This document shows positions 1 through 18,230 of a stretch of 24,000 bases of DNA, in pieces (the first letter of the stretch is position 1; each line of letters opens with the position of its first letter). Source of the DNA: Promethearchaeota archaeon. GTDB lineage: Archaea > Asgardarchaeota > Lokiarchaeia > Sigyniarchaeales > SOKP01. Where the stretch lies: NCBI GenBank assembly GCA_019057795.1, contig JAHLWS010000082.1:161538-185537 (forward strand), written 5' to 3'. The translations under genes were made by a program, and so were the position numbers. Under the pieces are notes generated by a model that searched no databases, was not told where the DNA came from, and saw only the letters and a program-made list of their open reading frames with translations.

Positions 1-1
1 A

Positions 2-3745: not shown

Positions 3746-4816
3746 TTAAGGATTATTCCTTCTAATAGTAACTTTCCCTGTCGCCCATAAATTATCTCTA
3801 GTGTGGATTTTTAGGCAATTTTTACAGACAATTTGAGTAATATGGGGGGGAAAATATACTTCATGAACTTCTCCACATGAACATGTAAGTATTATAACAG
3901 ATTTTTGGTCATGTTTTCTTAAATGAAAATATAAATCAAGATATAATGCAAATACATCTATTCCACGGTCTAAGACAATCAACTTGTGGAAGAATTTCCA
4001 TAAATCCTCCATAGGAATTGTTTTATCATATGAAAGAGATCCATCATGTTTTCTATCTCTAATACGAACGTTATTGTCGTCAACAGGAATGATCCCGCAT
4101 GTATCCTTATGTGAGGGAGCGTTTCTAACATGTATAAGTTCGATTAGGGTATTTTTTACAATATCTGGGGGGGTTCTATTATTATTCGCATTTAATTGAA
4201 AAATTAAGTATAAGTAGTTCCCATATGTCTTATTCTCATGTTTTCCCCATTCATCACCTAGATGCTTGCACCTAGATAGAAAAAGTGGATAATGATTACC
4301 ATAATTCAGTTCAAAGGCATTTATTATGTCGATAATATCTGATTCGCTAGAATCATAAGCATCCATAAGACTTTGTTCTGAATAAATCTTATTCAATTTT
4401 TTAATTTGAGCATTGTATGCAGGTACATCCGAAACAGGTGCCATCGTATGCAGTAATGTGCAAAAATTTTCTGGAAGGAGTTGTAGGTAAGTGTTTGTCC
4501 TAGATATTAAATATTTAAACCATTCAGTAGATAGTTGAAGAATAGCATCAGGAAATTTTCCTACTTTATTCAAAATTATGTGAGTAAGCACTTCCTTAAT
4601 CAAACGAATAAATAAAAATTCCCATGGATAAAGATGAATCTTTTTCTTGTTTATAACCGACCATAATTTTTGTAACAATGGATCTACTTCAATCCAATCA
4701 AATAAATCTTTAAATGAAAGCACCAACTTAGATGCATGATCATTTATAAAATCATTAATCTTGTTTGGATCTAAATTATCCCACCATATTTTAAATATAT
4801 AATCTAATTCTGACAT
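3746..4816 (-). CDS. Hypothetical protein with putative HEPN-type R-x4-H motif and C-terminal 4-Cys zinc ribbon
   Basis: 356-aa ORF. The motif LIELIHVRNAPSHKD (R231-N-A-P-S-H236, nt 4109-4126, verified by reverse-complementing) fits the HEPN Rx4-6H signature, with the typical polar residue after R, in a helical context. The C-terminus CSCGEVHEVYFPPHITQIVCKNC (nt 3815-3883) is a CxC...CxxC zinc ribbon. Confidence 0.7.
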   Translation of the reverse strand: MSELDYIFKIWWDNLDPNKINDFINDHASKLVLSFKDLFDWIEVDPLLQKLWSVINKKKIHLYPWEFLFIRLIKEVLTHIILNKVGKFPDAILQLSTEWFKYLISRTNTYLQLLPENFCTLLHTMAPVSDVPAYNAQIKKLNKIYSEQSLMDAYDSSESDIIDIINAFELNYGNHYPLFLSRCKHLGDEWGKHENKTYGNYLYLIFQLNANNNRTPPDIVKNTLIELIHVRNAPSHKDTCGIIPVDDNNVRIRDRKHDGSLSYDKTIPMEDLWKFFHKLIVLDRGIDVFALYLDLYFHLRKHDQKSVIILTCSCGEVHEVYFPPHITQIVCKNCLKIHTRDNLWATGKVTIRRNNP

Positions 4817-5080
4817 AATTGCATTTGAATCTGAATTTACGTTCTTAATTATAATTTAGTGTTGTCAAATATAAATAATTAATGCAGAGAAATGGAATCT
4901 GATGAGTATTATTAATATATTGTTTTCTTTCATTTTATGGCAAATCCGCCCATACGTCATATTGGATAGTATGTATTTGTTTGTTCTGATTGTTATATCC
5001 TTATATAAAGTCTATGCTTTTTGGAAAATAGGAAATCTCAAGACATTTTGAATTAGAATTTATAATATACCCCGAATTTT

Positions 5081-5112
5081 GTTTTGATTTTAACCAAAAC
5101 AAAGCAAAACAA
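5081..5112. repeat. Same GTTTTGATTT unit followed by inverted, related copies (AAAACAAAGCAAAACAA)
   Basis: gttttgattt lies at 5081-5090. After taacc comes aaaacaaagcaaaacaa at 5096-5112, whose reverse complement is ttgttttgctttgtttt. The element sits in the divergent promoter region upstream of the gene at 5198. Confidence 0.6.
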
Positions 5113-5197
5113 TGCTATGTATAGTAATCTGCTATCTTTTTAACAAAAACCTTTATTAAGGTGGATATCTTTAATTATTATAAAAAATATAATTTTT

Positions 5198-6814: not shown

Positions 6815-6914
6815 AATATCTAGAAAATAAATATTCGATCGTTGAAAGCGTATTAGATGACAATAATTTTGTTGTATTTTAAATCAAATAATTGGATTCC
6901 TATTTAAACCAACT

Positions 6915-7334
6915 CTAAAGGGGAAACCATGGCAATCTACATCCTTCTAGGCAGAGTAAACTTGCTACGGAATTCGTGAATTGTGTTAAACTCAACCTTC
7001 CTTCAACATTTTCAAACAGAATGGGATATGTCCCAGGCCACTCTAAATTCTCAATTTGCTCAAAAGTAACGCTTGGATCAATCATTTGCATTACCTCAAA
7101 CAATCCATAAGGACCTTCACCGCAATACCCCCAAGTCAAACCAGACATCCACAATTGAGCATTTTCGCCAATTATAATAACATATTGATGATAAAGTTCT
7201 GGATTCAACTGCCATTCTCGCTCTGCGAAGTAAAGAACAATATATTTAACCTTATCCACCTTATTAAAATGTTCCTTAAAAAATCTCAGAGCGTCTCGAG
7301 TAGACTTTAACGAACCTTGTTTAATAATTTGCAT
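6915..7334 (-). CDS. Hypothetical protein (139 aa)
   Basis: A clean ORF convergent with the preceding gene. It has a globular-looking composition and a distinctive WGYCGEGPYGLFE segment that I cannot assign to a family. Confidence 0.55.
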   Translation of the reverse strand: MQIIKQGSLKSTRDALRFFKEHFNKVDKVKYIVLYFAEREWQLNPELYHQYVIIIGENAQLWMSGLTWGYCGEGPYGLFEVMQMIDPSVTFEQIENLEWPGTYPILFENVEGRLSLTQFTNSVASLLCLEGCRLPWFPL

Positions 7335-7640
7335 AATAGTATGTTAGAATAAAAGTATTTAAAAGAAAAAATAAATCGATCCAAAGAAAAATAATTATAA
7401 AATCTTATTTTACCGCGACTCGGTTGAAAATAGAACAAATCAGCTTAATCCCAAAAAACTGGATTGGATTATCGATAAAATTGATCCAGACATTATCATA
7501 CATGTTCATACAGAAAATTTAGATTGGTTTAAAGAATGTTATGGAGATAAAGCAAAAATTTTAAAAAAAGGAAAGAAAATAATCATATAAGAATTACACA
7601 AATTAAGTTGAGCAATTTATCATAGAATGTGTGAGAAAAG

Positions 7641-7805
7641 ATGAAGGATGAAGATAAAGTAAAATTATGGGAATATCACGAAGCTAATATGAAGCCAAAA
7701 ATGATTGCTAAAGAATTAGGTTATAGTGTTTCGACAATTAAAAGAGTTATTGAAGAATATCAAGATATAAAGGACATACAACTTGAGAGAGAAGAAGATT
7801 TATAA
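7641..7805 (+). CDS. Small helix-turn-helix protein (54 aa), below the ORF-track size cutoff
   Basis: ATG at 7641, TAA at 7803-7805. Translation: MKDEDKVKLWEYHEANMKPKMIAKELGYSVSTIKRVIEEYQDIKDIQLEREEDL. MIAKELGYSVSTIKRVI is a textbook HTH (helix, G turn, recognition helix). Confidence 0.45.
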   Translation: MKDEDKVKLWEYHEANMKPKMIAKELGYSVSTIKRVIEEYQDIKDIQLEREEDL

Positions 7806-7812
7806 TTAATAA

Positions 7813-10800
7813 TTATTCTTGAAATAGTCTCTTATTCACTTCTCTCGCATTAAAAAAACCCTTATGAAAGAGTAAATCTGCAATATCTTCATACTGAACC
7901 TTGAAATCCTGGGTCTCATGTTTTCTACTTATTTCCTTAAGAATATCTATTATAATACTTTCAGTATTAGTATATAGCCATGTTAGGGGTTTTCCTTTTA
8001 ATAATTTAATGATAATCCTAAGAACTCCAAAACTATTTAGTTCAATATAATTCAACAATATTTTTAAAATGAAATGAGGAAAAATATCTAAATTCCCTTT
8101 TGTTAGATCTAAAACTTCATCTAATAATTGGAGGTAAATATCCTCAACATCTAATTTTTCAAACAACAATCCATACCAGTGAAATTCTTTAAATTTTTCT
8201 TCAGAGGTTAAACCTTCATCAGATTTTGCTTTCCTTATCCTGAATTCCCATAATTCCATAATCCTCTCAATAATTTCATCCTTTTTATCTAATTCACTTG
8301 CACGATCAAAAACTTTTATTGTATGCCACATAGCTCTTGAACGCAATTCAGGAGTTGCGTTTGAAAAAAACAGTCTTATAATGGAACCTGCTTGTAAATC
8401 TTCGATTGCATTAACAAATAAAAGTACAATGTGATATGCTAAATTTTCTAATGCTCTTTCAGTGTATAAAGTGCTTGACATATCAACAATAGCAGTTAGG
8501 TAATGATCATACATATGGCTATATATGTATCCATTTAGATTATTATACGAAATATAACTCTCCCATGCGATTTTCCATATTTCTTTATTATCTACTGAAA
8601 AAATGATAGAAATTTTAGAAGTTGCCCAATCTTTATTTAAGTAAAAAATATCAAAAAGTCTATATGATATAATAGAATAGTCAATAATGGCAGTGTCTGT
8701 ATTTGGGTCTAGAATTTCTTCTAGTTTTTCTTTTACCTCGGGTACCATCCTATCATTTTCATTTAGACTGAAGAGTTTAGCACAATACAAAGCATATGCT
8801 AGAAAAGTTCTTAATACAGATCCTCTAAATGTATTTATAGAAAATATGACATAATCTTCATACCCTGAATCTTTAATATCAAATAAATCTAATTCTGGAA
8901 CGCTTATATCAAAGGAATAAGAAATAATTTCCCATATTTTGCTAATAATTTCTGTGTTAATTGTAAGGTCATCGCGACTGAGAATCTCTCTCAAAAACGT
9001 AAGCATTGCTTTCCAGATATCCAATTTACTAGAATCTCCGAGGTCATACTTGTATTTATTAAAAATCTCGATTATTACTTGGATGATTTCGAGTGCATTA
9101 AACTCAATTCCGTCTTTAATAGCGTGCTTATAACCTTCAATTATATATGGAATATATATTATAGGAATATCTTGAAAGTCCTTTATGAGCTGCTTATATT
9201 TTGAAGGATTTTTTGTAATCACTTTACTTATAAAGACACCTAATCCATCTTTAGAAGTAAGAAATTCATTATCACCTGGACTCCAGTCATTTAAGTATCT
9301 AATAAGTTCATGAATAGATAAATTTTCAATTTGTTCGATTGTCAATGGTGATCCTGAAAAAAATCTTGGTTGTTGTGTTAATTTTTCCTTTTCAGAAGGT
9401 TTAACCTTTATAGTTGAGGTCATTAACTCATTATAAATTTCTTTTAAATCCGAGGGAAGATGTGTTTTTAATGGTTCTAAAATACTTTTTAACCAATTTG
9501 ATCTAGTGCGTTGCTTCCACTTCTGAAATTCGGTTTCATTTGAAAAATCCTCTATTTTATAGGGGTATTTTAAAAAATCTGGTCCATCTCTTAACCAATT
9601 AAAAATTAATAATTTTTCCTCTTCAGAAAGTTTAAGAAAATGATTACATAATAGCTCATGGTATTCAATCCAATAAATATTATCTTCAAAAAATTGTTTA
9701 TTAGTAAGACTGGTGTATAAATTACTTTCTAATTGCTTAGGATATAAGTTAACCAAATATAGTTCGATTCTTCTAAAAATGGTCCATTTAAATTCAGAAA
9801 GAACTTTAAAATTAGAAATGAGAAGTACATTACTCTCTTCAGCTATTTTTTCATAATAATGTAAAATTAGATTTATTAGATAATTTTTAGTATCTTTTAT
9901 CGCATGCAAACGAGAAACAGAATCAAGTGATCTCCTCCATCTTTCAGATTTATCTTTATATGTATCATTTTCAATATAGAATTCCGAACTTAATTTTATA
10001 TCTAATGAAGAGCTGATTATTCGTATGAATCTATTTAAAGAATTTTCAATCTCAATTTCTATAATATTGGTAATGAAATCCTCGAAATCAGAGAGTAAAA
10101 AATGAAATTTGTAGTCAATATTTCTGTTTTCTACTTTTATTGCCGGTTCTTCTGTACTAAAGATAATTTTAATTAAATTATAAGCTACATCCAGTTCTTC
10201 TTCTAATATAAATTTATTAACCATTTTCTTTAAAATGACATATTCTTGAATTGAAGAATAATATTTTATCCATTTTTCAATAATTGGCAGTGCATTCTGC
10301 GAGATTTTCACAGGCATATTGTACAAACATTCGAAAAGAGGTCTAAATATTCTGTAATTCTTAGTATTTTCAAGATTTTTGATTACATTAAATACTTTTT
10401 CAGGAATAAGGTGAGATATCCTTATTAAATAATTTACAGGGGGCCAAATAGAAATCATTAAGAAGCCTTCTATTGATTCTGCTTCAGGTTCAGAAAACAA
10501 ATTCCTTTTTTCCAATAGATCAAACCATTTAGAGGAAGAAAGTCTCGTAAAGAAATATTGTGAATGAGTAGGATGATTTAATAGTTGTAGCAATTTTTTT
10601 ATATGAATTTGTTCAGGAACATCAATTTCTAATAGATCATCTAATTCTTGTAAAATTTCCTTATTCGGTTTTAATACTTCATACACAATATATTCAAATT
10701 CGGTTAGATTCTCCTCAAATTCAATATCTTTAGTAGTTATATCATGGCTTGCTAACTTAGAAAAGTATTCACAAAGATCTCTTAACTTATTAAATAATGA

Positions 10801-11583
10801 TGATATCCTTTCAAAAGCTGGTTTTGGGAGCAATTCAGTATTTTTTATGAATCCATCTTTTAAATTGCTTAACATTTTACAAATATACAAGAGTGAATTT
10901 GCTGATTGAGAAAATCTATTTACATGTTTCTCATTTTTAAAGGTTAATTTTGCACCTTTATAATTTTCTGCAGCAATATCATCTAGTTTGAGTAACCTAG
11001 AAATTAGTTTATTTTCCCTGATACCTGTTAATTCCTCGGGCTTTTCTAAGTTATCTAGTAATTTAGAAATAATATCTGCTGGTATAATTAAATCTGAATA
11101 AGTCCTCCTAATTTCGGGAAATTGATCAAGAAATCTTTTAATCTCTTCAGCACCCCAAATATGAATATTTGGAATGACTTTTTTGAACTTAGGTAATATT
11201 TCATTCTCAATTTTATCTTTTGTGCCTGTTTGATAAACTGGAGAGAGAGATACATTCGTTATAAGAATGTAATTATCACAAGGGTATTTGTATTTGTTTA
11301 TAATTTTATTTAATTCATCATCAATATCTTGTTTAATTGCCTCTCTTGCTTTTTCCATCCCAATTTGATCTATATCATGAAATTTTGCTTGAAATATCCA
11401 TTTGCCATTCCAGCGTGCAGGTTCAGAAGGATATGGTGCTTCACCTTCGAATGTGGCTTCTCGAGATCCATCCTTACCCATTCCAAATACTTTAGCGCCT
11501 GGGCCTATTACCCTTTGAACTAAGGCTTGAGATAAGAACTCAAATTCTTCTGAGCCTAATTTATTAAGATTATATTTTGGCAT
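7813..11583 (-). CDS. Large (1256 aa) protein: N-terminal Mrr-like PD-(D/E)xK restriction-endonuclease-fold domain fused to about 1050 aa of alpha-helical, repeat-like sequence; no P-loop seen
   Basis: The N-terminus EEFEFLSQALVQRVIGPGAKVFGMGKDGSREATFEG...GKWIFQAKF gives D38, E42 and Q65-x-K67 (nt 11383-11472). YILITNVSLSP follows, as in Mrr-cat type nuclease domains found at N-termini of defence proteins. The remainder is leucine/isoleucine-rich and helical, and I could find no Walker A motif. Confidence 0.85.
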   Translation of the reverse strand: MPKYNLNKLGSEEFEFLSQALVQRVIGPGAKVFGMGKDGSREATFEGEAPYPSEPARWNGKWIFQAKFHDIDQIGMEKAREAIKQDIDDELNKIINKYKYPCDNYILITNVSLSPVYQTGTKDKIENEILPKFKKVIPNIHIWGAEEIKRFLDQFPEIRRTYSDLIIPADIISKLLDNLEKPEELTGIRENKLISRLLKLDDIAAENYKGAKLTFKNEKHVNRFSQSANSLLYICKMLSNLKDGFIKNTELLPKPAFERISSLFNKLRDLCEYFSKLASHDITTKDIEFEENLTEFEYIVYEVLKPNKEILQELDDLLEIDVPEQIHIKKLLQLLNHPTHSQYFFTRLSSSKWFDLLEKRNLFSEPEAESIEGFLMISIWPPVNYLIRISHLIPEKVFNVIKNLENTKNYRIFRPLFECLYNMPVKISQNALPIIEKWIKYYSSIQEYVILKKMVNKFILEEELDVAYNLIKIIFSTEEPAIKVENRNIDYKFHFLLSDFEDFITNIIEIEIENSLNRFIRIISSSLDIKLSSEFYIENDTYKDKSERWRRSLDSVSRLHAIKDTKNYLINLILHYYEKIAEESNVLLISNFKVLSEFKWTIFRRIELYLVNLYPKQLESNLYTSLTNKQFFEDNIYWIEYHELLCNHFLKLSEEEKLLIFNWLRDGPDFLKYPYKIEDFSNETEFQKWKQRTRSNWLKSILEPLKTHLPSDLKEIYNELMTSTIKVKPSEKEKLTQQPRFFSGSPLTIEQIENLSIHELIRYLNDWSPGDNEFLTSKDGLGVFISKVITKNPSKYKQLIKDFQDIPIIYIPYIIEGYKHAIKDGIEFNALEIIQVIIEIFNKYKYDLGDSSKLDIWKAMLTFLREILSRDDLTINTEIISKIWEIISYSFDISVPELDLFDIKDSGYEDYVIFSINTFRGSVLRTFLAYALYCAKLFSLNENDRMVPEVKEKLEEILDPNTDTAIIDYSIISYRLFDIFYLNKDWATSKISIIFSVDNKEIWKIAWESYISYNNLNGYIYSHMYDHYLTAIVDMSSTLYTERALENLAYHIVLLFVNAIEDLQAGSIIRLFFSNATPELRSRAMWHTIKVFDRASELDKKDEIIERIMELWEFRIRKAKSDEGLTSEEKFKEFHWYGLLFEKLDVEDIYLQLLDEVLDLTKGNLDIFPHFILKILLNYIELNSFGVLRIIIKLLKGKPLTWLYTNTESIIIDILKEISRKHETQDFKVQYEDIADLLFHKGFFNAREVNKRLFQE

Positions 11584-11896
11584 GGGGTAATTAAGAGTGT
11601 GTTTTTAGTTAGATATCTGATTATTTTATTGACTGAGTTAATTAGATTTTTTCACATATTTAAGAATTTAGGATTATGTTATTAGGCGAAAATTTTGAAA
11701 AAGAGCAATATTATTTTAACCTTATGAAGAGAGGAGTGTTTTATGATCTCTAATCTTTCTTCTTCATTTGCATTTAATAGACGCTCTCGGAAGTGTTTTC
11801 TTCTTTCAATCGCATAATCTATCCATGCAAAATGAATTCTAACATTTTCGGGATTCCTTGATATGATAATTTGATTTCAATGATAGAAATTCAAAT

Positions 11897-12688
11897 CTAA
11901 ATAAAAGCATATTTAGAATTATTAATAAGTTTATGGAGAAAATGTGCTATACCTAAATAGCTAATTTCAACTGTTTTTTCTTTTTTATCTTTAGGATTTG
12001 GATGAATGTTCAAAGCTGAAATTTTATTTAGTTTTTGGAGATAACCATTTAAAGATCCTCTAGATAAAGACTCATTCCTTTTATTTTCTAAAGCTTGCTT
12101 AATTTCTTCTAATGAATCATACATTTTTCGATTATACAATAACGGATTATCATTAAAAGATTGTTCTTGCTTGAAGAAATCAAGACAATTTTCATAAACA
12201 CCAAAAAATAACTCTAGAAATTCGAACTGTTTAACTGATATCAGTGGAAAAGGAATGGTAGGTAAATTCATATTCGAGTAAATTCCCACTTCTTCACTTC
12301 CTTCGTATATGAAATCACCGTGAATAATCCTTGTATTAGTTATAGAACAAGCTATATATAACCAAATAACCATATATCTCAATCCTCCAGATATATTTAC
12401 CGTAACATTATCGAATCCTTGAAGTTTTTGCTGGTAAATAAAGTGTGTTAATTCTGCTATCGGTTTTGTTTGAATATGAAAGTCGAATTCAACAGTTTGA
12501 ACAAAGATTTTACGTTCCTCATAATATTTTATTAATTTATTGAGATTTTTTTTTGCTTCAGGTGTACCGGATAGAGGTTGTTTTTCCGTAATTAAGGTTA
12601 TTTTATGGATAATCTCCTTATCAATAGAATAAATAAGTTTTTCTGGTAAATGTCCCACTAAAACAATTTGATTGTAATTTCCATTCAT
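11897..12688 (-). CDS. Csa3-like regulator: N-terminal CARF (Rossmann-like) domain + C-terminal winged HTH
   Basis: The layout is collinear with Sulfolobus Csa3 as I recall it. QIVLVGHLPEKLIYSI (beta1/helix) is followed by ITLITEKQPLSGTPEAKKNL, then VTVNISGGLRYMVIWLYIACS (the CARF SGG-x-R loop, nt 12371-12397). The C-terminal wHTH is SLSRGSLNGYLQKLNKISALNIHPNPKDKKEKTVEISYLGIAHF. Confidence 0.75.
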   Translation of the reverse strand: MNGNYNQIVLVGHLPEKLIYSIDKEIIHKITLITEKQPLSGTPEAKKNLNKLIKYYEERKIFVQTVEFDFHIQTKPIAELTHFIYQQKLQGFDNVTVNISGGLRYMVIWLYIACSITNTRIIHGDFIYEGSEEVGIYSNMNLPTIPFPLISVKQFEFLELFFGVYENCLDFFKQEQSFNDNPLLYNRKMYDSLEEIKQALENKRNESLSRGSLNGYLQKLNKISALNIHPNPKDKKEKTVEISYLGIAHFLHKLINNSKYAFI

Positions 12689-13051
12689 GAGTAACTATTT
12701 TTTCTTTATATAAATCTAAGTTTATATATTTCATTAAAATTATTATTTATAAATTAATAACATTTTTTATAAACATGTTTACTTTTTTTTAGATATATAT
12801 ATGAAAAAGTATATAAACGAACAAATTCACTTTGTGACATGTATTAAGAGATAATAAAAGGCGACCGGTTATGAGTTTAGATAATTTAATAATGAGAAAA
12901 AAGGAAAGTAATTTGAAATTATTTAAAACAACTAATGGAAAAAAATTTAATGAGATAAAGGTCAGTCATGATTTAAATAATAATGAATATATAATCAAAT
13001 TAAAGACAATTTTTTTGCTTTTTCGCTATAAAATTGAAATAAGGTGTGAAA
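12689..13051. promoter_or_regulatory. Divergent intergenic/promoter region between the CARF-wHTH gene and the Cas4-HerA operon
   Basis: 363 nt and extremely AT-rich. TATA-like TTTATATAAA lies at 12705-12714 and TTTATATA at 12721-12728, close to the minus-strand ATG (12688). A perfect 10-nt palindrome AAACATGTTT lies at 12771-12780, with a second ACATGT at 12837-12842. GCTATAAAATT lies at about 13024-13034, and the SD-like AGGTG at 13042-13046 sits 5 nt before ATG 13052. Confidence 0.4.
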
Positions 13052-15667
13052 ATGGGCGCTGAAATCTCTTTTCCGTCGGGAAAAATCCCTATATCAACGT
13101 TAGAAAGGTATTCTTATTGCAAAAAACAAGGGATTCTCTCGATAAGAAAGAAAGAAATAAGAAAAAAAGACACAAAAAAAAAAGTTATAGGACGAATCCT
13201 TCACGAAGTTTTTAAGAATTTTCACGAAGAATGGACAGATATTATGTATAGCCGCCGTGAAAAACGATGTGGTATTAACCGTTTAAAATTAATCCTCGAA
13301 GCAGCTGTGGACCAAGCAAGGGTAACAATGGAAAGCGATCCATCGTATTTGGCCTATGAAGCTCCACTCAATAAAGGTTTTAAGAGGATGATGGAGGGTC
13401 GGAACGGATTTGTGTCTCAAATTAGCAACGCTGCCAGAAAACTCGCAAAAAATAATGATCTTTTTAGATCTGATGAACTACCTCGAACTTATTTCAAAGG
13501 AGAGCCGAAGTTTGAATGGGATGTAGGATTAGAACATTCTCAGCTATACGGAAGAATCGATTGTTTGGTTGAAAAAGAACAAGAACGCGAATTTTTTATA
13601 TGGGAGTTCAAAACTGGAATTGTTCCCGACGAACCTTTTGAAGGTCACGTCTTAGAAGCGGTTGGGTATGCTGTTGTATACGAACAAGAAAGCGAAATGA
13701 AGTGTATAGGACTAAAAATCCTTTATTACGGCGAAAAGGAATTTAATATAGCGTTCACCGATTTCCATAGGGATAAAGTTAATTCCCAAATCCAAGAACT
13801 GTTTGATTACGAAGAAAAAGGAGATATTCCTCACGTTTTAATGGGTAGTAAATGTAATGAATGCGATTTTTATGATGATTGCGTTAAGGAAAGCAAAGTT
13901 ATACAATTGTCTGGAGCAGAAGAAGACATCTCCGAAACAATCGATTCGGATTTAGATTTGGAGAAAGAAGAACAAGAATTAGAAAGTTTTGAAGAGACGG
14001 TAACTGAATCCGGTGAAATAGAAAAAACAACTCCAACACCAATACAAAAAGAAGTGAAATCAACAACAACTAAGAATGATAAACAAGCTATTTCTACTCC
14101 AAAAATGTTAGCAGATAAGGAATTTGTTCCTAAAGAAGCTATTGGGATCGTCATACAATCGGAACAACGCGGATACTTGTTATCTACAGAAAAGAGCAAT
14201 CTGCTCTCAGGTGCGATAAAGCAAGAATTTCAAAGGAAGTTGTATCCTGGTCAGGTTCTGATAACAGCGAACGAGAAAATAAAAGAAATGCCATCTGCCA
14301 TCGTAGAAGTGAAAGAAATAAAATCCTTTCCTAAGACGCTCTCCGCCCCGTTTCGCAAGATTGAAATGTTCAATATTTTGATCGAGACTTCTCCTTTTAT
14401 GTATTACGAAAATCAGCGGTATTCAAAAGTTTTGTTTCCAGCTAATTTTTCCAGTCATTATTTTAGACTTCCTTCTAAACCAGAATTGATGAGAATCATG
14501 AATTTGTTTGGTGAGGGGATCAATTTAGGATTAGTCACTTACGAAATGTTAGAAAATGAATTACCCGACATGGAACTTATTTATAAATACCCGTTCTCGT
14601 TTAAGGAAACGGGGTATAAAGGGATATTTGTTGTTGGTTCTCCTGGAAAGGGAAAGACTAATTTATTAAAAATTCTAATCAATGGCATATCGCAATATGT
14701 CGGAACAAGAGATGGACTGCCTCCAGCTGTTATAGTATTAGATATCACAGGGCAATTTGGTCAGCTTGATAAGCCCACTAAATATGCTACAACCTTTGAC
14801 GAGGAACTTTGGAAATTATTGGATATGAAAATAGTGAATAAATTAAAAGTATTTAAGATTATACATGATTGTGGCGATGGAACGCACACACTATCGTTAA
14901 ACGCCATAGATCCCGAACTAATTAGTTTATTGTTTCCAGAGTTGCCCCCCACTTCTTCCACGAATTTTAAACGGATGGTTAAGATGATATTCAAGGATTA
15001 TCCCGCAGTCAATTATGAGAATTTTGCTAACAAAATTAACGAAATCATACGACGAGAAAGCAGCACGCTAAACTCTCAAGTTGCTAAGGCAATACAAGGG
15101 GCAATAACTAATGGACCCATTGATATTTTTGATCAAGGAGGTAAAGTATTACAAGTAAAGGATATTTTAGTACCTGGTCAAGTATCTGTCATCCAAATCG
15201 ATCACATTGTCGATAAAATGCCGGTTTTATTATATTTACTTTTGATGATTAACAGAAAGAAGATTTACGAAAACGATCAAACACCCGTTATAATGGTACT
15301 AGACGAAGCTCACGAGCTATTTCCAAAAAGTGCTAATCCCGGAGAAAAAGAATATTTGCGACGGGTTTCCCAGAGTTTAATTCGAATCGCTCGACGCGGA
15401 AGGAAAAAGCACTTTGGTTTAATTTTTGCATCTCAACAACCCCACGACATAATACCTGAAATTATTGGAGTGTTCCAAACTAAAATTATTATGGGTTTAG
15501 AAGCAACTTCAGGGAATTGGATAAAAGATACGCTTGGTAGAGAATATGTGACTTTGATATTTAGTCTTGGTCAAGGATATGCTCGAATTTGGAACGCAGA
15601 ACTCCATAAGGGGACGTTAGTTCCGTTATTTATCCCAAAAGCACCTAATAAACACGAAGAGGATTAG
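13052..15667 (+). CDS. Fusion protein: Cas4-type (4Fe-4S, PD-(D/E)xK) nuclease + acidic linker + HerA-type (DUF87/FtsK-HerA superfamily) ATPase
   Basis: The track starts at GTG 13046. ATG 13052 with AGGTG 5 nt upstream is the more likely start. Residue numbers follow the track.
Cas4 part: YSYC25KK, GRID172CL, IWE187FK189TG, EAVGYAVVYE, and C270NEC273DFYDDC279 (nt 13853-13882).
Linker, residues about 286-360: EEDISETIDSDLDLEKEEQELESFEETVTESGEIEKTTPTP.
HerA part: barrel-like AIGIVIQSE...PGQVLITANE...AIVEVKEI, Walker A GSPGKGKT (nt 14636-14659), Walker B VIMVLDEAHELF (D at nt 15302), and ARRGRKKHFGLIFASQQPHDI. Confidence 0.9.
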   Translation: MGAEISFPSGKIPISTLERYSYCKKQGILSIRKKEIRKKDTKKKVIGRILHEVFKNFHEEWTDIMYSRREKRCGINRLKLILEAAVDQARVTMESDPSYLAYEAPLNKGFKRMMEGRNGFVSQISNAARKLAKNNDLFRSDELPRTYFKGEPKFEWDVGLEHSQLYGRIDCLVEKEQEREFFIWEFKTGIVPDEPFEGHVLEAVGYAVVYEQESEMKCIGLKILYYGEKEFNIAFTDFHRDKVNSQIQELFDYEEKGDIPHVLMGSKCNECDFYDDCVKESKVIQLSGAEEDISETIDSDLDLEKEEQELESFEETVTESGEIEKTTPTPIQKEVKSTTTKNDKQAISTPKMLADKEFVPKEAIGIVIQSEQRGYLLSTEKSNLLSGAIKQEFQRKLYPGQVLITANEKIKEMPSAIVEVKEIKSFPKTLSAPFRKIEMFNILIETSPFMYYENQRYSKVLFPANFSSHYFRLPSKPELMRIMNLFGEGINLGLVTYEMLENELPDMELIYKYPFSFKETGYKGIFVVGSPGKGKTNLLKILINGISQYVGTRDGLPPAVIVLDITGQFGQLDKPTKYATTFDEELWKLLDMKIVNKLKVFKIIHDCGDGTHTLSLNAIDPELISLLFPELPPTSSTNFKRMVKMIFKDYPAVNYENFANKINEIIRRESSTLNSQVAKAIQGAITNGPIDIFDQGGKVLQVKDILVPGQVSVIQIDHIVDKMPVLLYLLLMINRKKIYENDQTPVIMVLDEAHELFPKSANPGEKEYLRRVSQSLIRIARRGRKKHFGLIFASQQPHDIIPEIIGVFQTKIIMGLEATSGNWIKDTLGREYVTLIFSLGQGYARIWNAELHKGTLVPLFIPKAPNKHEED

Positions 15668-15681
15668 GGGAGCGACTATAT

Positions 15682-17058
15682 ATGTTAAAATTCCTGCCGC
15701 TCGGAGGAGGGAACGATATAGGAGCAAGCTCGTATCTCGTGCAGATCAATCGATTCAACTTCTTATTGGACGCAGGATTAAGACCAAGGAGCTTTAAAAA
15801 TACGCCTAAATACATTAAAATGTTTGAATTAATCGAGGATTGGTCCCAAATCGATGCGGTCTTTATAAGCCACCCCCACCTCGATCATGTGGGCTCTCTA
15901 CCTAAAGTGTTTGAAGCCAATCCAAAAGTCCCTATTTTTGTTCCTGAACAAAGTTTACCATTAATAGAAGTGCAGATATATGGATCTTTAACTTACCAAA
16001 AGCGAATCAAGAAATACGCCGAAGATTATCTAGGAGTAGAATATTCAATCGACTTAGTATCGAATTGTCTATCAAACATAAAAGAAATCGCATATAATAA
16101 GTTAACAAAAATAAAAAAGACCAATGTAACCTTTGAATTTTGGCCCGCAGGACATATTTTAGGGTCAGCGAGCATATTTATTAAAACGAGAAAGGGCAGC
16201 CTTGTATATACGGGAGACGTTTCTACCCATGAAAGGCCCTCAATTCCCGATCTATCTTATCCTTCTCGAAAGGTGGATCTATTGATTATGGAAAGCACTT
16301 ATTTAAGTTCCAATCACGAGATATCACCGCAAGAAGGGTTCGATCAATTATATTTAAAAGTAAAGGACATTACCGAAAAGGGAAACCACGTTCTGATCCC
16401 CAGTTTTGCTTTAGGTAAGGCTCAAGACATTATCAAGATGTTTATCGAGCGTAATAAAGCAGAAGATAATCCCGTTCCCATTTATTTAGACGGTTTGGTA
16501 AAGAAAATTACTCGGATTTATAGCAAAGTGTTAGGTGAATCCCTGTTTTTTAGCTTGAAGGACGGTTCGTGCAACTTTATTTCGGGTATACATAATGATG
16601 TGAATGAATATAAAAAGTTTTTAGAGCGTCATCCAGGGATAGCTATTATTTCAAGTTCTGGTATGCTCCTAGATGGGAGCAAGTCCGCTCGATGGGCAGA
16701 GGCCATCCTCCCATACGAGGGAAACGGTTTATTCTTTACTGGTTATCTCGACGAAGAATCTCCAGGAGCGAAGCTATTAAAGTGCGTCTCCGAAAAAGTA
16801 ATATCTCTTAACGGTGAAATTATCCCACTTAACGCACATATAGATAGATTCTATATTAGTACTCATTCTTCTGCGTCTGAATTGGCTAATCTCGTTGAGA
16901 TGGTAAAGCCTAAAGCCGTCGTGTTAGTACACGGAAATAATCCGGCGCAAAAAATTGCAGAATTTCAACAAGCATGTGAGAGAAAAATTAACAGAAAATT
17001 ACCAATTATAAAATCTATAAATGAAGAAATGATAGAATTAGGTGAAATGTTTGAGTGA
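15682..17058 (+). CDS. Metallo-beta-lactamase-fold nuclease of the beta-CASP family
   Basis: LLDAG (motif 1), HPHLDH (nt 15871-15888, motif 2), AGHILGSA (motif 3), YTGDVS (motif 4), LIMESTY (beta-CASP motif A), STHSSASEL (motif B His) and VLVHGN (motif C His). GGGGAG at 15667-15672 lies 9 nt upstream of the ATG. There is only a 14-nt gap after the upstream gene. Confidence 0.9.
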   Translation: MLKFLPLGGGNDIGASSYLVQINRFNFLLDAGLRPRSFKNTPKYIKMFELIEDWSQIDAVFISHPHLDHVGSLPKVFEANPKVPIFVPEQSLPLIEVQIYGSLTYQKRIKKYAEDYLGVEYSIDLVSNCLSNIKEIAYNKLTKIKKTNVTFEFWPAGHILGSASIFIKTRKGSLVYTGDVSTHERPSIPDLSYPSRKVDLLIMESTYLSSNHEISPQEGFDQLYLKVKDITEKGNHVLIPSFALGKAQDIIKMFIERNKAEDNPVPIYLDGLVKKITRIYSKVLGESLFFSLKDGSCNFISGIHNDVNEYKKFLERHPGIAIISSSGMLLDGSKSARWAEAILPYEGNGLFFTGYLDEESPGAKLLKCVSEKVISLNGEIIPLNAHIDRFYISTHSSASELANLVEMVKPKAVVLVHGNNPAQKIAEFQQACERKINRKLPIIKSINEEMIELGEMFE

Positions 17059-18229
17059 AGAGCTATTAAACCTTGTTTATGAATTGAACGCTAAATGCCT
17101 TCAAAAATTAGAAGATTTAGACGAAGAGACTAAAGATAAAAATAACCATGAATACATTATCATGAGAAATTATGTCCAGAAAAAAGATTTTTATCCTAAA
17201 GATTTGACAAAAGCTATTAATCAACCGCAAAGAGTCGTCCTTAATATGGTTCGAGATATAGGCTTTATCCATTTTAAGAATAGACGATTATATGTCCAGA
17301 GGAAATATTTAGATTGGATACGATTGGTGGTCAAGGATGTCATCATTTTCTTTAACTATCCAATAAACAAAAAAATGAACCGGGGTATCGATTATGTTAA
17401 TTCATTTATGAAAAAGAAGCAACAAATCAAAAATTATAAAATAATACTATTAAACGCCTTCGAGTCGGAAGGACTTTTATTATTCCCGATTGAGTTACTA
17501 AACGAAATGAAGGTGATACTTAAAAACGCAAGTTGGGGTGTGTGTATGTATTATTTTAAAGAATTATACGAAATTTATCTTAAAATGTACCCAGAACTCG
17601 ATTACCAAAGTGTACAATCAGACGATATGGATCTTTCTGAACCAGATGAAACTGATACTGAAGAAGTACTTGATGACAATGCAGAACAACTTGAAGCTGA
17701 AATTTCCATTAATCCAAGAGATTTGATGGAACAAAATCAGAAACTAAATAACGAACTTAGCGAATCTAGAGCGGTGTGCGATTTTCTTACTATGCAATAC
17801 GACGATCTAATGGTATCAATGGATAACTTGAAGAAGGTTTCGACCGAGCAAGATTTTAGAAAAGTGTTTTTGGCGTTTAATTCTATTGAAAATAACAATG
17901 TGCTGGACGCTTTCTTTATCGCTAAATCAACTTTAGATACATTAAAAAGTTCCGGTTGGGAGCCCTTTCCACCTGAACTTAAATCAATATTGTATATTTT
18001 TGATCTTTTTGCAGAATTCTTTAATAGACAAGCCCTTATCACTAATTATAAGTTAGGAGAAGAGGTATTAATAACCATAGAAAACATCTCTAATTTTGAA
18101 TATAAGGGTCAAGAATTAAAAAAAGGAATGGAAGTGCTAGCAAGAGTGCGATCCCCAGCTTGGTATTATCAGGGAAGATTGATTTCAAAAGCGAGCGTTT
18201 TAGAAATTAAAGGTGGAGGAAAAGAATAA
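17042..18229 (+). CDS. Hypothetical protein: wHTH-like N-terminal region, acidic linker, coiled coil and GrpE-like C-terminal domain (tentative)
   Basis: The ORF overlaps the stop of the beta-CASP gene. The start is either GTG 17042 or TTG 17051; the latter has AGGTGA (17040-17045) 5 nt upstream. Residues about 38-90 look like a wHTH (DLTKAINQPQRVVLNMVRDIGFIHFKNRRLYV). Residues 190-222 are acidic. Residues about 225-392 parallel GrpE, with a long helix (QNQKLNNELSESRAVCDFLTMQYDDLMVSMDNLKK...VLDAFFIA) followed by KKGMEVLARVRSPAWYYQGRLISKASVLEIK, compared with E. coli GrpE [29 protein letters not shown]. Confidence 0.8.
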   Translation: MKCLSEELLNLVYELNAKCLQKLEDLDEETKDKNNHEYIIMRNYVQKKDFYPKDLTKAINQPQRVVLNMVRDIGFIHFKNRRLYVQRKYLDWIRLVVKDVIIFFNYPINKKMNRGIDYVNSFMKKKQQIKNYKIILLNAFESEGLLLFPIELLNEMKVILKNASWGVCMYYFKELYEIYLKMYPELDYQSVQSDDMDLSEPDETDTEEVLDDNAEQLEAEISINPRDLMEQNQKLNNELSESRAVCDFLTMQYDDLMVSMDNLKKVSTEQDFRKVFLAFNSIENNNVLDAFFIAKSTLDTLKSSGWEPFPPELKSILYIFDLFAEFFNRQALITNYKLGEEVLITIENISNFEYKGQELKKGMEVLARVRSPAWYYQGRLISKASVLEIKGGGKE

Positions 18230-18230
18230 A

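What the first reader, a model, noticed from the sequence alone, without database searches (positions are those of the whole stretch)
13052..15667. Cas4-type Fe-S nuclease covalently fused to a HerA-type translocase ATPase through an acidic linker
Seen: one continuous 871-873-aa frame contains the following.
- A complete Cas4-like signature: N-terminal Cys25, GRIDCL, IWEFKTG, and a C-terminal CNECDFYDDC.
- A low-complexity acidic and Thr/Pro-rich linker of about 75 aa.
- A HerA-like barrel and P-loop ATPase: GSPGKGKT, VLDEAHE and RRGRKKHFGLIFASQQP.

Established: HerA normally partners with a separate nuclease subunit, such as NurA in archaea.

Inference: the nuclease is hard-wired here, so a hexamer would carry six Cas4 nucleases around the translocation pore. 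No NurA, Mre11 or Rad50 gene is present in the window, so this is not the canonical end-resection operon.
Basis: partly seen in the sequence, partly recalled or inferred. Interest (0 to 1): 0.75.

Follow-up and report, generated by a model that had tools for sequence, protein, structure and literature searches.

The report
Cas4-like nuclease fused to HerA motor
One real, conserved gene joins an iron-sulfur Cas4-like DNA nuclease to a HerA-type DNA-pumping ATPase; it leads a four-gene cassette that moves as a unit in marine-sediment microbes (at least one is an Asgard archaeon) and is probably an undescribed defence system that degrades nucleic acids.

Summary
The fusion is not an assembly artefact. 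The same uninterrupted frame recurs in 16 near-identical proteins from independent assemblies, in 12 diverged clusters (49-95 % identity) and in a Promethearchaeota MAG (37 %).

Profile and fold searches assign the N-terminus to Cas4-like PD-(D/E)xK nucleases. D172/E187/K189 are invariant and the C25...CX2CX5C cysteines are kept in 12 of 13 sequences. The C-terminus is assigned to HerA: hhalign gives 97.9 % against a canonical haloarchaeal HerA, and the top Foldseek hits are all HerA, with no VirB4 or TraG. The 69-143-aa acidic, Ser/Thr/Pro-rich linker is hypervariable but always present. The "HerA barrel" (aa 362-525) could not be verified.

The gene leads a discrete 7.9-kb cassette: the fusion, a CPSF73-like beta-CASP nuclease, a 395-aa protein with no recognisable family, and an Hsp70-HEAT ATPase. 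The cassette is conserved in every locus long enough to show it and sits among defence genes. A split version (separate cas4-like and herA-like genes) also exists.

The best reading is a self-contained translocase-nuclease effector of a new defence cassette. That makes it a new variant of the HerA-nuclease theme (NurA, DUF4297, Sir2). Function is inferred, not shown.

The parts
11897..12688 (-). Divergently transcribed 263-aa regulator, Csa3-like, with a CARF/Rossmann domain (Pfam HFX_2341_N). Homologues carry a winged-helix C-terminus. It accompanies the cassette in only some loci.
   Evidence: Pfam HFX_2341_N 2.2e-7 and Csa3_N 2.5e-4. PADLOC CARF3 1.7e-18. NCBIfam cas_HTH/Csa3 1.3e-6. Homologues lie upstream of the cassette in L003 and L006, where HFX_2341_N comes with WHD_DUF6293, and in L014, L018 and L020. 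HFX_2341 itself is a haloarchaeal repressor of cas genes (PMC11434293).
12689..13051 (.). AT-rich divergent intergenic region of 363 bp, presumably holding the promoters and operators of the regulator gene and of the cassette.
   Evidence: Sequence read. Only imperfect AT-rich palindromes were found, for example 12777-12818. An AAGGTG motif lies just upstream of the ATG at 13052. The function of this region was not tested.
13046..13891 (+). Cas4-like PD-(D/E)xK (RecB-fold) nuclease domain, aa 1-282, with four Fe-S-type cysteines.
   Evidence: PDDEXK_1 covers aa 17-275 and Cas_Cas4 aa 170-280. PADLOC Cas4 models score 4e-12 to 6e-12. H53, D172, E187, K189 and Y208 are invariant; C25, C270, C273 and C279 are present in 12 of 13 sequences. 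AlphaFold pLDDT is about 80-90 for aa 44-258. Foldseek matches Cas4 8d3l at E 8e-6.
13892..14128 (+). Disordered acidic, Ser/Thr/Pro-rich linker, aa 283-361.
   Evidence: 79 aa, 27 % D+E and 27 % S+T+P. It is 69-143 aa long in the 13 family members and has no sequence conservation. pLDDT is 23-30. This stretch drops out of nucleotide alignments with the diverged loci, which break at about 13883-14135.
14129..14620 (+). Conserved beta-rich domain, aa 362-525, in the position of HerA's N-terminal HAS barrel. Its identity is not established.
   Evidence: Many invariant residues. No Pfam hit even at E 10. Not covered by the hhalign match to canonical HerA. pLDDT is below 50.
14621..15667 (+). HerA-type RecA-like P-loop ATPase, aa 526-873, plus the stop codon. 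Contains Walker A GSPGKGKT, Walker B VLDEAHE, the RRGRKKH / ASQQP motifs and an invariant C-terminal tail PKAPNKHEED.
   Evidence: Pfam DUF87 and HerA_C. PADLOC HerA 2.8e-16 and mad8 9e-15. PDB sequence search finds the DUF4297-system HerA 8xau at 1e-7 and S. solfataricus HerA 4d2i at 5e-6. hhalign against canonical haloarchaeal HerA gives 97.9 %, E 5e-13, aa 519-855. The top Foldseek hits are all HerA. K537, T538, D753, E754, R783, R786, Q797 and Q798 are invariant.
15682..17058 (+). Beta-CASP metallo-beta-lactamase nuclease, 458 aa, of the CPSF73 / aCPSF1 / Cas14 type. It starts 14 nt after the stop of the fusion gene.
   Evidence: Pfam Lactamase_B, Beta-Casp and RMMBL. PDB: CPSF73 6e-39, INTS11 9e-35, Thermus TTHA0252 1e-33, type VII Cas14 3.5e-31. 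NCBIfam: aCPSF1 1.3e-57, Cas14 3.7e-47. The HPHLDH, AGH and GD motifs are visible in the translation. The gene follows the fusion in every locus long enough to show it.
17042..18229 (+). 395-aa protein with no recognisable family. It overlaps the beta-CASP gene by 17 nt. The model shows a helical N-half with a winged-helix-like element, an acidic disordered stretch, a long helix and a small C-terminal beta domain.
   Evidence: No hits in Pfam, NCBIfam, PADLOC or PHROGs. 30 homologous clusters, all uncharacterised. AlphaFold pLDDT 74. No significant Foldseek PDB hit, only a weak resemblance to GrpE (9blt_B, E 0.2, probability 0.89), which hhalign does not support.
18213..20948 (+). Hsp70-like ATPase, 911 aa from the GTG at 18213 or 905 aa from the ATG at 18231. 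It has an intact nucleotide-binding domain, a region resembling the substrate-binding domain, and about 400 aa at the C-terminus that is HEAT-like by homology.
   Evidence: Pfam HSP70 2e-37. DnaK structures score 8e-25, with GIDLGTTNS, DLGGGTLDVS and LLSGGMTKLP aligned. 4660 homologues at E<=1e-10; many are 880-950 aa and carry HEAT_2 or HEAT_PBS. It is the last gene of the cassette in every complete locus. Nucleotide homology with other loci ends at 20947-20950.

Best explanation
**Architecture (shown).** Window 13046/13052..15667 encodes one real polypeptide. It consists of a catalytically intact Cas4-like Fe-S PD-(D/E)xK nuclease, a flexible acidic linker of about 80 aa, a conserved beta-rich domain, and a HerA-type P-loop ATPase.

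**Context (shown).** It is the first gene of a discrete 7.9-kb operon (13052-20948) that moves as a unit. The other genes are a CPSF73-like beta-CASP nuclease, a 395-aa protein with no recognisable family, and an Hsp70-HEAT ATPase. A CARF/winged-helix regulator often sits upstream. The cassette occurs in uncultured marine and subsurface-sediment microbes, including a Promethearchaeota (Asgard) MAG, and lies among defence genes.

**Mechanism (inferred).**
- The HerA part forms a hexameric ring that translocates DNA using ATP.
- Six Cas4-like domains are tethered on the N-terminal face of the ring. That is the face where NurA, DUF4297 and Sir2 dock on HerA in solved complexes.
- These domains cut and degrade the DNA that is fed to them. 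The protein therefore carries motor and nuclease in one chain, where HerA-NurA and DUF4297-HerA use two proteins.
- The beta-CASP enzyme adds a second nuclease, most likely acting on RNA or 5' ends.
- The Hsp70-HEAT protein and the 395-aa protein most likely sense a trigger or gate the assembly and activity of the complex.
- The whole cassette most likely acts as a defence system against viruses or mobile elements.
For: **The fusion is real and conserved.**

**Domain identities**
- Pfam, PADLOC and NCBIfam searches.
- PDB sequence search.
- hhalign against canonical HerA, 97.9 %.
- Foldseek, where HerA fills the top 27 ranks and Cas4 appears at rank 28.

**Catalytic residues.** Those of the nuclease and of the ATPase are invariant in 13 of 13 sequences.

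**The nuclease-HerA link is independent of the fusion**
- In L012 a separate cas4-like gene (Cas_Cas4, 2.7e-10) overlaps the start of a 510-aa herA-like gene by 11 nt.
- About 30 of 34 HerA-like cluster representatives with an N-terminal extension of at least 100 aa carry the homologous nuclease domain.

**The cassette is a unit**
- The four genes keep the same order in the window (with L007, the same sequence), L001, L003, L004 (with L005), L006, L009, L014-L017, L019 and L028 (L016 and L019 end within the Hsp70 gene), and in part in L002, L010 and L022.
- Nucleotide homology starts at 13052 and ends at 20947-20950, with unrelated flanks.
- Gene starts and stops overlap or lie 14 nt apart.
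- GC content rises from 25-30 % upstream to 36-38 % inside the cassette.

**Defence neighbourhood**
- In the window: a Dsr1-like protein (5.7e-46) and a PDC-S10-like protein.
- In other loci: type IIG restriction-modification genes, nSTAND3, SLFN_AlbA_2, HEPN and an NYN RNase.
- A Csa3-like CARF regulator lies upstream.

**Precedent.** DUF4297-HerA is a characterised anti-phage ATPase-nuclease complex in which assembly activates both enzymes (PMC11291478). In a study of 16 nuclease-NTPase defence systems, complex formation was found in all of them (bioRxiv 10.1101/2025.07.10.664194).
Against: - No function was tested. Defence is inferred from gene neighbourhood and patchy distribution only.
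- The putative HAS barrel is unverified, so the ring architecture is extrapolated from the ATPase core.
- The full-length AlphaFold model is poor (mean pLDDT 57). No multimer model was made.
- HerA and Cas4-type 5'-3' exonucleases are also repair enzymes, and Csa3a regulates repair genes in Sulfolobus (title of PMC5587795). A repair role is therefore not excluded.
- The roles given to the beta-CASP, Hsp70-HEAT and 395-aa proteins are guesses. The GrpE resemblance of the 395-aa protein is not significant.
- The organism of the window itself is not identified, and a close relative is labelled "[bacterium]" in NCBI.
Confidence: 0.6

Rival explanations
1. It is a DNA-repair or end-resection module. 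Cas4-HerA would replace NurA-HerA as the 5'-3' resection machine for double-strand breaks, with the beta-CASP enzyme trimming ends as Artemis/SNM1 does. It would be a housekeeping function of the host rather than immunity.
For: - The ATPase core is homologous to canonical repair HerA. The tblastn hits in annotated records are HerA genes inside Mre11-Rad50-NurA-HerA operons.
- Cas4 is a 5'-3' exonuclease with an Fe-S cluster (title of PMC3466216, listed).
- The Csa3a regulator couples CRISPR and DNA-repair genes in Sulfolobus (title of PMC5587795).
Against: - Distribution is very sparse. Only 12 clusters at 90 % identity were found among 5.8 billion. Two pattern scans of one genome per species for 185,579 species found nothing.
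- The flanks differ in every locus and are full of defence genes.
- No Mre11 or Rad50 gene is nearby.
- The beta-CASP protein carries the RMMBL domain and matches CPSF73, aCPSF1 and Cas14 best, rather than the DNA-specific DRMBL type.
- An Hsp70-HEAT partner has no precedent in end resection.
Confidence: 0.2
2. It is a function of a mobile element or virus. A FtsK/HerA-type ATPase would pump DNA for packaging, conjugation or transfer, and the nuclease would act like a terminase or a nicking domain.
For: - HerA-like ATPases are common in archaeal "dark matter" islands as possible viral pumping ATPases (PMC4158269).
- There are weak hits to TrwB, VirB4, TraC, a terminase PHROG and CedD.
- The cassette behaves as a transferable unit with a GC step.
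Against: - No relatives were found in 2.9 million viral contigs or 50,697 phage records.
- No capsid, integrase, relaxase or other type IV secretion gene was found among the ORFs of 80 aa or more scanned against Pfam.
- The VirB4, TraC and TrwB scores are 14-17 bits against cut-offs of 20.5-643.
- The best structural and profile matches are HerA.
Confidence: 0.08
3. It is an accessory of CRISPR-Cas adaptation. The Cas4 domain would process prespacers, and HerA would supply DNA fragments, as RecBCD and AddAB do. The CARF regulator would tie the operon to cyclic-oligoadenylate signalling.
For: - The domain is Cas4-like.
- The best PADLOC HerA model is the "type III coevolved" HerA.
- HerA/NurA pairs are known type III neighbours (PMC6546367).
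- A Csa3-like CARF regulator lies next door.
Against: - No cas1, cas2, effector genes or CRISPR array occur in the window.
- No cas1, cas2 or other cas family appears among the genes listed for the related loci, apart from the Cas4-like domain itself.
- TIGR00372 scores below its cut-off.
- The domain fits the non-CRISPR pfam12705 "Cas4-like" group better. That group is known to fuse to helicases in defence contexts (PMC5704561).
Confidence: 0.06
4. It is an artefact: a mis-assembly, a missed stop or a frameshift that joins two separate genes.
For: The linker is of low complexity. A split two-gene version of the module exists elsewhere (L012).
Against: - The frame is open in every independent assembly that spans the linker.
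- The fusion is kept from 95 % down to 37 % identity, with linker lengths of 69-143 aa (longer still in the Promethearchaeota copy), all in frame.
Confidence: 0.01

Closest known systems
Archaeal HerA-NurA end-resection complex (for example S. solfataricus 4d2i, T. kodakarensis 9x1l/9x1m)
   Same: The ATPase core is homologous: hhalign 97.9 % against a canonical HerA, and these structures are the top Foldseek hits. The logic is the same: a ring translocase feeds DNA to a nuclease placed at its N-terminal face.
   Different: - The nuclease here is a Cas4-like PD-(D/E)xK domain, not NurA.
- It is covalently fused, which would fix a 6:6 ratio if the protein forms the usual hexamer, where HerA-NurA is 6:2.
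- There are no Mre11 or Rad50 genes.
- The HerA equivalog models score 32-33 bits against cut-offs of 800-970.
- The HAS barrel is not recognisable.
DUF4297-HerA and Sir2-HerA (Nezha) anti-phage systems
   Same: An HerA ATPase is paired with an effector enzyme, and assembly activates both in DUF4297-HerA (PMC11291478). The HerA of the DUF4297 system (8xau) is the best PDB sequence hit at 1e-7. The defence-island context is shared.
   Different: - The effector here is Cas4-like with an Fe-S cluster, not the Cap4-like DUF4297 or SIR2.
- It is fused rather than separate.
- The operon has three further genes (beta-CASP, the 395-aa protein and Hsp70-HEAT) that those two-gene systems lack.
- The PADLOC and NCBIfam anti-phage HerA models match only weakly.
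UvrD-Cas4-like fusions and other pfam12705 Cas4-like nucleases (Hudaiberdiev et al. 2017)
   Same: A non-CRISPR Cas4-like nuclease domain (PDDEXK_1) is fused to a DNA motor and encoded in defence contexts (PMC5704561).
   Different: [quoted passage not shown] That paper does not mention HerA at all (0 occurrences).
AddAB, RecBCD and Dna2 helicase-nucleases
   Same: A RecB-fold nuclease is coupled to an ATP-driven DNA motor in one machine; in AddB and Dna2 the nuclease carries a four-cysteine Fe-S cluster (from general knowledge). There is a weak Pfam Dna2 hit over aa 17-65.
   Different: The motor belongs to a different class (hexameric ring versus monomeric SF1). There is no homology outside the nuclease fold.
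CnuD, the Hsp70 NBD/SBD + HEAT protein of type III CoCoNuT (McrBC-type) systems
   Same: The last gene of the cassette has an Hsp70 nucleotide-binding domain followed by a region that is HEAT-like by homology. As with CnuD, it accompanies an NTPase-plus-nuclease restriction-like module (PMC11090510).
   Different: There is no McrB GTPase, McrC or coiled-coil nuclease. The phosphate-binding motifs look intact here, whereas the paper describes the Walker A-like motifs of CnuD as degenerate. Direct homology to CnuD was not tested.

Membership tests
Cas4 (CRISPR-associated; PF01930 / TIGR00372) | RecB-type PD-(D/E)xK catalytic motifs (D ... ExK, plus the QxxxY-type motif) | tested here: met
   D172 (GRIDCL), E187 and K189 (WEFKTG) and Y208 are invariant in 13 of 13 sequences. 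The position preceding Y208 by four residues is E in 12 sequences and Q in one.
Cas4 (CRISPR-associated; PF01930 / TIGR00372) | Four cysteines for a 4Fe-4S cluster (one N-terminal Cys plus C-terminal CX2CX5C) | tested here: met
   C25, C270, C273 and C279 are present in 12 of 13 sequences; P0012 lacks all four. Metal binding itself cannot be tested here.
Cas4 (CRISPR-associated; PF01930 / TIGR00372) | Score above the curated family thresholds | tested here: not met
   TIGR00372 scores 43.9 bits against a cut-off of 65. Pfam Cas_Cas4 scores 22.7 bits, exactly at its cut-off of 22.7, for the whole protein, and 28.8 bits for the isolated domain. PDDEXK_1 passes at 32.6-36.2 against 22. The domain is therefore Cas4-like, of the pfam12705 type.
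Cas4 (CRISPR-associated; PF01930 / TIGR00372) | Encoded with cas1/cas2 or next to a CRISPR array | tested here: not met
   No cas genes were found among the window ORFs. There is no repeat array and no Rfam hit. No other cas gene appears in the related loci.
HerA (FtsK-HerA superfamily, HerA clade) | RecA-like P-loop ATPase with Walker A, Walker B and conserved arginine and glutamine motifs | tested here: met
   GSPGKGKT, VLDEAHE, RRGRKKH and ASQQP are invariant. Pfam DUF87 and HerA_C match.
HerA (FtsK-HerA superfamily, HerA clade) | Closer to HerA than to VirB4, TraG/TrwB, FtsK or packaging ATPases | tested here: met
   hhalign against canonical HerA gives 97.9 %, E 5e-13. The three best PDB profile hits are all HerA, and no VirB4, TrwB or FtsK chain appears at E<=0.01. 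Foldseek ranks 1-27 are HerA. VirB4, TraC and TrwB score E 0.002-0.007.
HerA (FtsK-HerA superfamily, HerA clade) | N-terminal HAS beta-barrel preceding the ATPase | tested here: inconclusive
   A conserved, beta-rich segment of about 165 aa occupies the right position. It has no Pfam hit at E<=10, is not covered by the hhalign match, and has pLDDT below 50.
HerA (FtsK-HerA superfamily, HerA clade) | Orthology to named HerA families (NCBIfam equivalogs) | tested here: not met
   helicase_HerA scores 33.2 bits against 970, HerA_Thermprot 32.1 against 800, HerA_antiphage_2 35.9 against 850 and HerA_antiphage 25.9 against 800. This is a distinct HerA-like clade.
HerA (FtsK-HerA superfamily, HerA clade) | Hexameric ring that translocates DNA | not testable with these tools
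   No multimer prediction or biochemistry is available.
Canonical archaeal Mre11-Rad50-NurA-HerA operon | Adjacent nurA, mre11 and rad50 genes | tested here: not met
   None is present in the window. Compare the haloarchaeal operons in L026 and L027.
HerA-effector anti-phage systems (DUF4297-HerA, Sir2-HerA) | HerA encoded together with a DUF4297 or SIR2 effector as a two-gene system | tested here: not met
   The effector is Cas4-like and fused, and the operon has four genes. The shared principle (HerA plus an effector enzyme) is met.
HerA-effector anti-phage systems (DUF4297-HerA, Sir2-HerA) | Protects against phage or virus infection | not testable with these tools
   Only the gene context among defence genes is available.
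CoCoNuT type III (CnuD-containing McrBC-like systems) | McrB-type NxD GTPase and McrC homologue together with an Hsp70-HEAT protein | tested here: not met
   An Hsp70-HEAT-like protein is present. No McrB or McrC domain was found in any window ORF.

The most novel reading that the evidence does not exclude
The four-gene cassette is a previously undescribed immune system. Its genes are the Cas4-HerA fusion, a CPSF73-like beta-CASP nuclease, a 395-aa adaptor with no recognisable family, and an Hsp70-HEAT ATPase. It is carried by Asgard archaea and possibly other sediment microbes. In this reading, an Hsp70-type ATPase senses a viral protein or RNA and licenses a ring translocase that carries its own six Fe-S nucleases. 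The beta-CASP enzyme attacks transcripts at the same time. That would be a chaperone-gated defence against both DNA and RNA, built from parts with eukaryote-like relatives (Hsp70, CPSF73).
Probability: 0.35. Interest if true: 0.75.

Novelty: new variant of a known kind. Interest (0 to 1): 0.6.

Why it matters
HerA-centred immune complexes (Sir2-HerA, DUF4297-HerA) have been active structural targets since 2023. In the solved structures searched here, the effector is a separate protein that must assemble on the ring.

A natural single-chain version has three uses:
- It would fix the stoichiometry at one nuclease per motor subunit, if the protein forms the usual hexamer.
- It shows which face of the ring the effector works on.
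- Together with the split cas4-like plus herA-like gene pair, it provides fusion-versus-split-gene evidence that Cas4-like nucleases and HerA-like motors work together.

The conserved partnership with a CPSF73-type beta-CASP nuclease and an Hsp70-HEAT ATPase did not appear in any library searched (PADLOC 2.0, NCBIfam, Pfam, PHROGs) or in the open-access papers searched. The cassette occurs in a Promethearchaeota MAG. If it is a defence system, it adds to the poorly charted immune repertoire of Asgard archaea, and it offers a tractable four-protein system for asking how an Hsp70-type ATPase can regulate a nuclease machine.

Full report
**1. The observation**

The window has one ORF at 13046..15667 on the + strand. 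It is 873 aa from a GTG. It is 871 aa from the ATG at 13052, which follows an AAGGTG motif and is the start used by public gene calls.

Between the last cysteine and the next conserved block lie about 79 residues with 27 % Asp+Glu and 27 % Ser+Thr+Pro.

**2. Is the fusion real?**

Yes.
- The identical 871-aa protein is called on a 189,715-bp NCBI contig and on an independent Logan assembly that is 100 % identical to the window over 18 kb.
- Its 90 % cluster holds 16 members from ENA, JGI, NCBI and Logan assemblies; of the 15 listed, 11 are 871 aa, one is 869 aa and three (606-656 aa) are shorter, one of them labelled partial.
- A word-indexed search of 5.8 billion clusters found 12 relatives at 49-95 % identity, all 844-934 aa.
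- In the alignment of the 13 sequences, both halves are highly conserved (mean column identity 71 %). The linker varies freely in sequence and in length, from 69 to 143 aa.
- In nucleotide alignments with diverged loci, the match breaks exactly across 13883-14135.
- Every locus that spans the linker keeps an open frame across it.
- A copy in a Promethearchaeota MAG is 37 % identical over its full length, with an even longer linker.

**3. What the two halves are**

N-terminal half:
- Pfam PDDEXK_1 covers aa 17-275 (32.6-36.2 bits, cut-off 22) and Cas_Cas4 covers aa 170-280.
- Several PADLOC Cas4 models score around 1e-11 to 1e-12.
- Foldseek matches type I-C Cas4 (8d3l) at E 8e-6. That part of the AlphaFold model has pLDDT 80-90.
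- H53, D172, E187, K189 and Y208 are invariant. The cysteine pattern C25 ... C270-X2-C273-X5-C279 is present in 12 of 13 sequences.
- It is Cas4-like rather than an orthologue of CRISPR Cas4. TIGR00372 scores 43.9 bits against a cut-off of 65, and there are no cas genes and no array.
- It fits the non-CRISPR pfam12705 group, which Hudaiberdiev et al. found fused to UvrD helicases in defence contexts. That paper does not mention HerA (PMC5704561).

C-terminal half:
- Pfam DUF87 (HerA central domain) and HerA_C match. PADLOC HerA scores 2.8e-16.
- The three best PDB profile hits are the HerA of the DUF4297 system (1e-7), S. solfataricus HerA (5e-6) and T. kodakarensis HerA (7e-5).
- Foldseek ranks 1-27 are all HerA structures.
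- A tblastn search of annotated plasmids found only HerA genes, in canonical Mre11-Rad50-NurA-HerA operons where the hits were inspected. hhalign against one of them gives 97.9 % probability, E 5e-13, over aa 519-855.
- All ATPase motifs are invariant.
- The equivalog models for named HerA families score only 26-36 bits against cut-offs of 800-970. This is therefore a distinct HerA-like clade.

The "barrel" (aa 362-525) is strongly conserved and predicted to be beta-rich. It has no Pfam match, lies outside the hhalign match, and is modelled at pLDDT below 50.

**4.

- The fusion gene is followed after 14 nt by a 458-aa beta-CASP metallo-beta-lactamase. Its best matches are CPSF73 (6e-39), aCPSF1 (1.3e-57) and the type VII CRISPR nuclease Cas14.
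- Next comes a 395-aa protein, overlapping by 17 nt, with no hit in any family library.
- Last is a 911-aa Hsp70-like ATPase, again overlapping. Its nucleotide-binding motifs align with DnaK.
- The Hsp70-like protein belongs to a very large family (4660 hits at E<=1e-10) of roughly 850-1275-aa proteins, most of them 880-950 aa. Many of these carry HEAT_2 or HEAT_PBS after the Hsp70 domain.
- The four genes keep the same order in every related locus long enough to show them.
- Nucleotide homology between the window and other loci starts at 13052 and ends at 20947-20950, with unrelated flanks. GC content rises from 25-30 % upstream to 36-38 % inside.
- The cassette is therefore a discrete 7.9-kb unit.
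- A Csa3-like CARF/winged-helix regulator of the HFX_2341 family is divergently transcribed upstream in the window and in several loci. HFX_2341 itself is a haloarchaeal repressor of cas genes (PMC11434293).
- Other loci carry a different, co-directional 233-247-aa gene instead.

**5. Neighbourhood and host**

The flanks are defence-rich.
- In the window: a Dsr1-like 1256-aa protein (5.7e-46) and a PDC-S10-like phosphoesterase-nuclease.
- Elsewhere: type IIG restriction-modification genes, nSTAND3, SLFN_AlbA_2, HEPN and an NYN RNase.

All sources are marine, lake or subsurface sediment metagenomes. One cluster member comes from the LCGC14 marine sediment metagenome, which I recognise as the Loki's Castle data set. 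The cassette is absent from the species-representative genomes scanned by pattern, from viral contigs and from phage records.

One copy lies in a MAG labelled Promethearchaeota, near an Arf/Ras-like small GTPase gene. The organism of the window itself is not established, and a close relative is labelled only "[bacterium]".

**6. A wider family, fused and split**

- A profile search of 1.84 billion representatives gave 526 hits at E<=1e-3.
- Among the 142 HerA-like representatives that match the C-terminal model, 34 have at least 100 aa N-terminal to the HerA-like part.
- About 30 of those extensions are homologous to the nuclease domain, and about 10 keep the CX2CX5C pattern. This estimate comes from an iterative search in a small database, so it is approximate.
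- P0064 (1017 aa; Cas_Cas4 4.8e-13 plus DUF87) is followed by a MORC/GHKL-type HATPase_c_3 gene.
- In L012, a 510-aa herA-like gene without the nuclease domain is preceded by a separate cas4-like gene (Cas_Cas4 2.7e-10) that overlaps it by 11 nt. It is also followed by an HATPase_c_3 gene.
- The nuclease-motor pair therefore exists both fused and split, and it combines with different partner genes. This is good comparative evidence that the two activities work together.

**7. Most likely mechanism**

Shown: the architecture, the intact catalytic motifs, the operon, and the mobile, defence-island context.

Inferred, with confidence of about 0.6 for the whole reading:
- The HerA part forms a hexameric ring that translocates DNA.
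- The nuclease lies N-terminal to the ring-forming part. That is the side where NurA, DUF4297 and Sir2 sit on HerA in solved complexes (PMC11291478; my knowledge of the HerA-NurA and Sir2-HerA structures).
- Six flexibly tethered Cas4-like domains would therefore meet the DNA as it enters or leaves the pore and would degrade it.
- The beta-CASP enzyme is a second nuclease, probably acting on RNA or 5' ends.
- The Hsp70-HEAT protein and the 395-aa protein probably sense a trigger or gate activity. An analogy is the Hsp70-HEAT protein CnuD, which accompanies McrBC-like NTPase-nuclease pairs in type III CoCoNuT systems (PMC11090510).
- The invariant C-terminal tail PKAPNKHEED could be a docking peptide or an inter-subunit brace. 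This was not tested.

**8. Rivals**

| Rival | Confidence | Main points |
|---|---|---|
| DNA-repair or end-resection module | 0.2 | Homology to repair HerA and the known Cas4 exonuclease activity speak for it. Sparse distribution, variable defence-rich flanks, no Mre11/Rad50, and RNA-type beta-CASP and Hsp70-HEAT partners speak against it. |
| Mobile-element DNA-pumping function | 0.08 | No viral or conjugative genes or hits. |
| CRISPR-adaptation accessory | 0.06 | No cas genes or arrays. |
| Assembly artefact | 0.01 | Tested and rejected. |

**9. Novelty and score**

The principle of HerA plus a nuclease is known, from NurA-HerA and DUF4297-HerA. Cas4-like nuclease domains fused to SF1 helicases are also known. 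A Cas4-like nuclease fused to HerA, and the four-gene cassette with a beta-CASP nuclease and an Hsp70-HEAT ATPase, were not found in PADLOC 2.0, NCBIfam, Pfam or PHROGs as a dedicated family. They were also not found in the open-access literature searched. Iyer et al. 2004 could not be read.

I rate it a new variant of a known kind, with interest 0.6. The fusion itself is a logical step and is only moderately surprising. The conserved cassette and its presence in an Asgard-lineage MAG are the more interesting part.

Noticed in passing
window 7813..11583 (-): A 1256-aa protein matches PADLOC Dsr1 (5.7e-46, aa 310-1222). Its N-terminus (aa 3-178) weakly matches a TIR-type model (1.2e-6) instead of SIR2. 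No Pfam or NCBIfam family matches. It may be a TIR-headed variant of Dsr1, sitting right beside the cassette.
   Followed up: partly
window 5198..6814 (+): A 538-aa protein combines a calcineurin-like phosphoesterase with an RNase_H_2 / TM0106 RecB-like nuclease domain. It matches the PADLOC candidate PDC-S10 (8.4e-16). It is another likely defence gene of the island.
   Followed up: no
window 3299..3628 (+): This 109-aa ORF belongs to a 90 % cluster in which most other listed members are 332-335 aa. It looks like a truncated or decayed copy of a longer gene.
   Followed up: no
window 13001..20000 versus 1..13000: GC content is 25-30 % upstream and 36-38 % across most of the cassette. This fits recent horizontal acquisition of the 7.9-kb unit.
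   Followed up: partly
window 15635..15664 (aa 864-873 of the fusion): The C-terminal tail PKAPNKHEE[D/E] is almost invariant in all 13 family members and is still recognisable (LALNKHEK) in the 37 %-identical Promethearchaeota copy. It could be a partner-docking peptide or an inter-subunit brace.
   Followed up: no
window 18213..20948 (+) and homologues P0306-P0407: The Hsp70-like protein belongs to a very large family (4660 hits at E<=1e-10) of roughly 850-1275-aa Hsp70 NBD + HEAT-repeat proteins, most of them 880-950 aa. They occur in bacteria (Poribacteria, Melioribacteraceae, Oceanotoga, Psychrilyobacter) and archaea. Their genomic contexts were not examined. They resemble CnuD of CoCoNuT systems.
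   Followed up: partly
L012 2..3673 and L013 623..5207: A related Cas4-like + HerA-like module, split in L012 and fused in L013, is followed by a MORC/GHKL-type HATPase_c_3 gene instead of the beta-CASP and Hsp70 genes. In L013 Schlafen-type helicase genes follow as well. This looks like a second, different cassette built on the same nuclease-motor pair.
   Followed up: partly
L028 4607..12733 and 14565..15278: A MAG labelled Promethearchaeota (GCA_054681365.1) carries the same four-gene cassette about 2 kb from an Arf/Ras/Roc-type small GTPase gene.
   Followed up: partly
window 17042..18229 (+): The AlphaFold model of the 395-aa protein (pLDDT 74) shows a winged-helix-like element, an acidic disordered stretch (aa 191-223), a 40-residue helix and a small C-terminal beta domain. 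A weak Foldseek resemblance to the Hsp70 exchange factor GrpE (E 0.2) is intriguing given the adjacent Hsp70-like gene, but hhalign does not support it.
   Followed up: yes
L001 9128..9829 and L002 2130..2873: In two loci the CARF regulator is replaced by a co-directional 233-247-aa gene. The two copies are 42 % identical to each other, and no Pfam family matches. By eye the C-terminus looks like a winged helix.
   Followed up: partly
window 665..2962 (+): A 765-aa protein consists almost entirely of tetratricopeptide repeats (TPR_1, 9e-120, 14 repeats).
   Followed up: no
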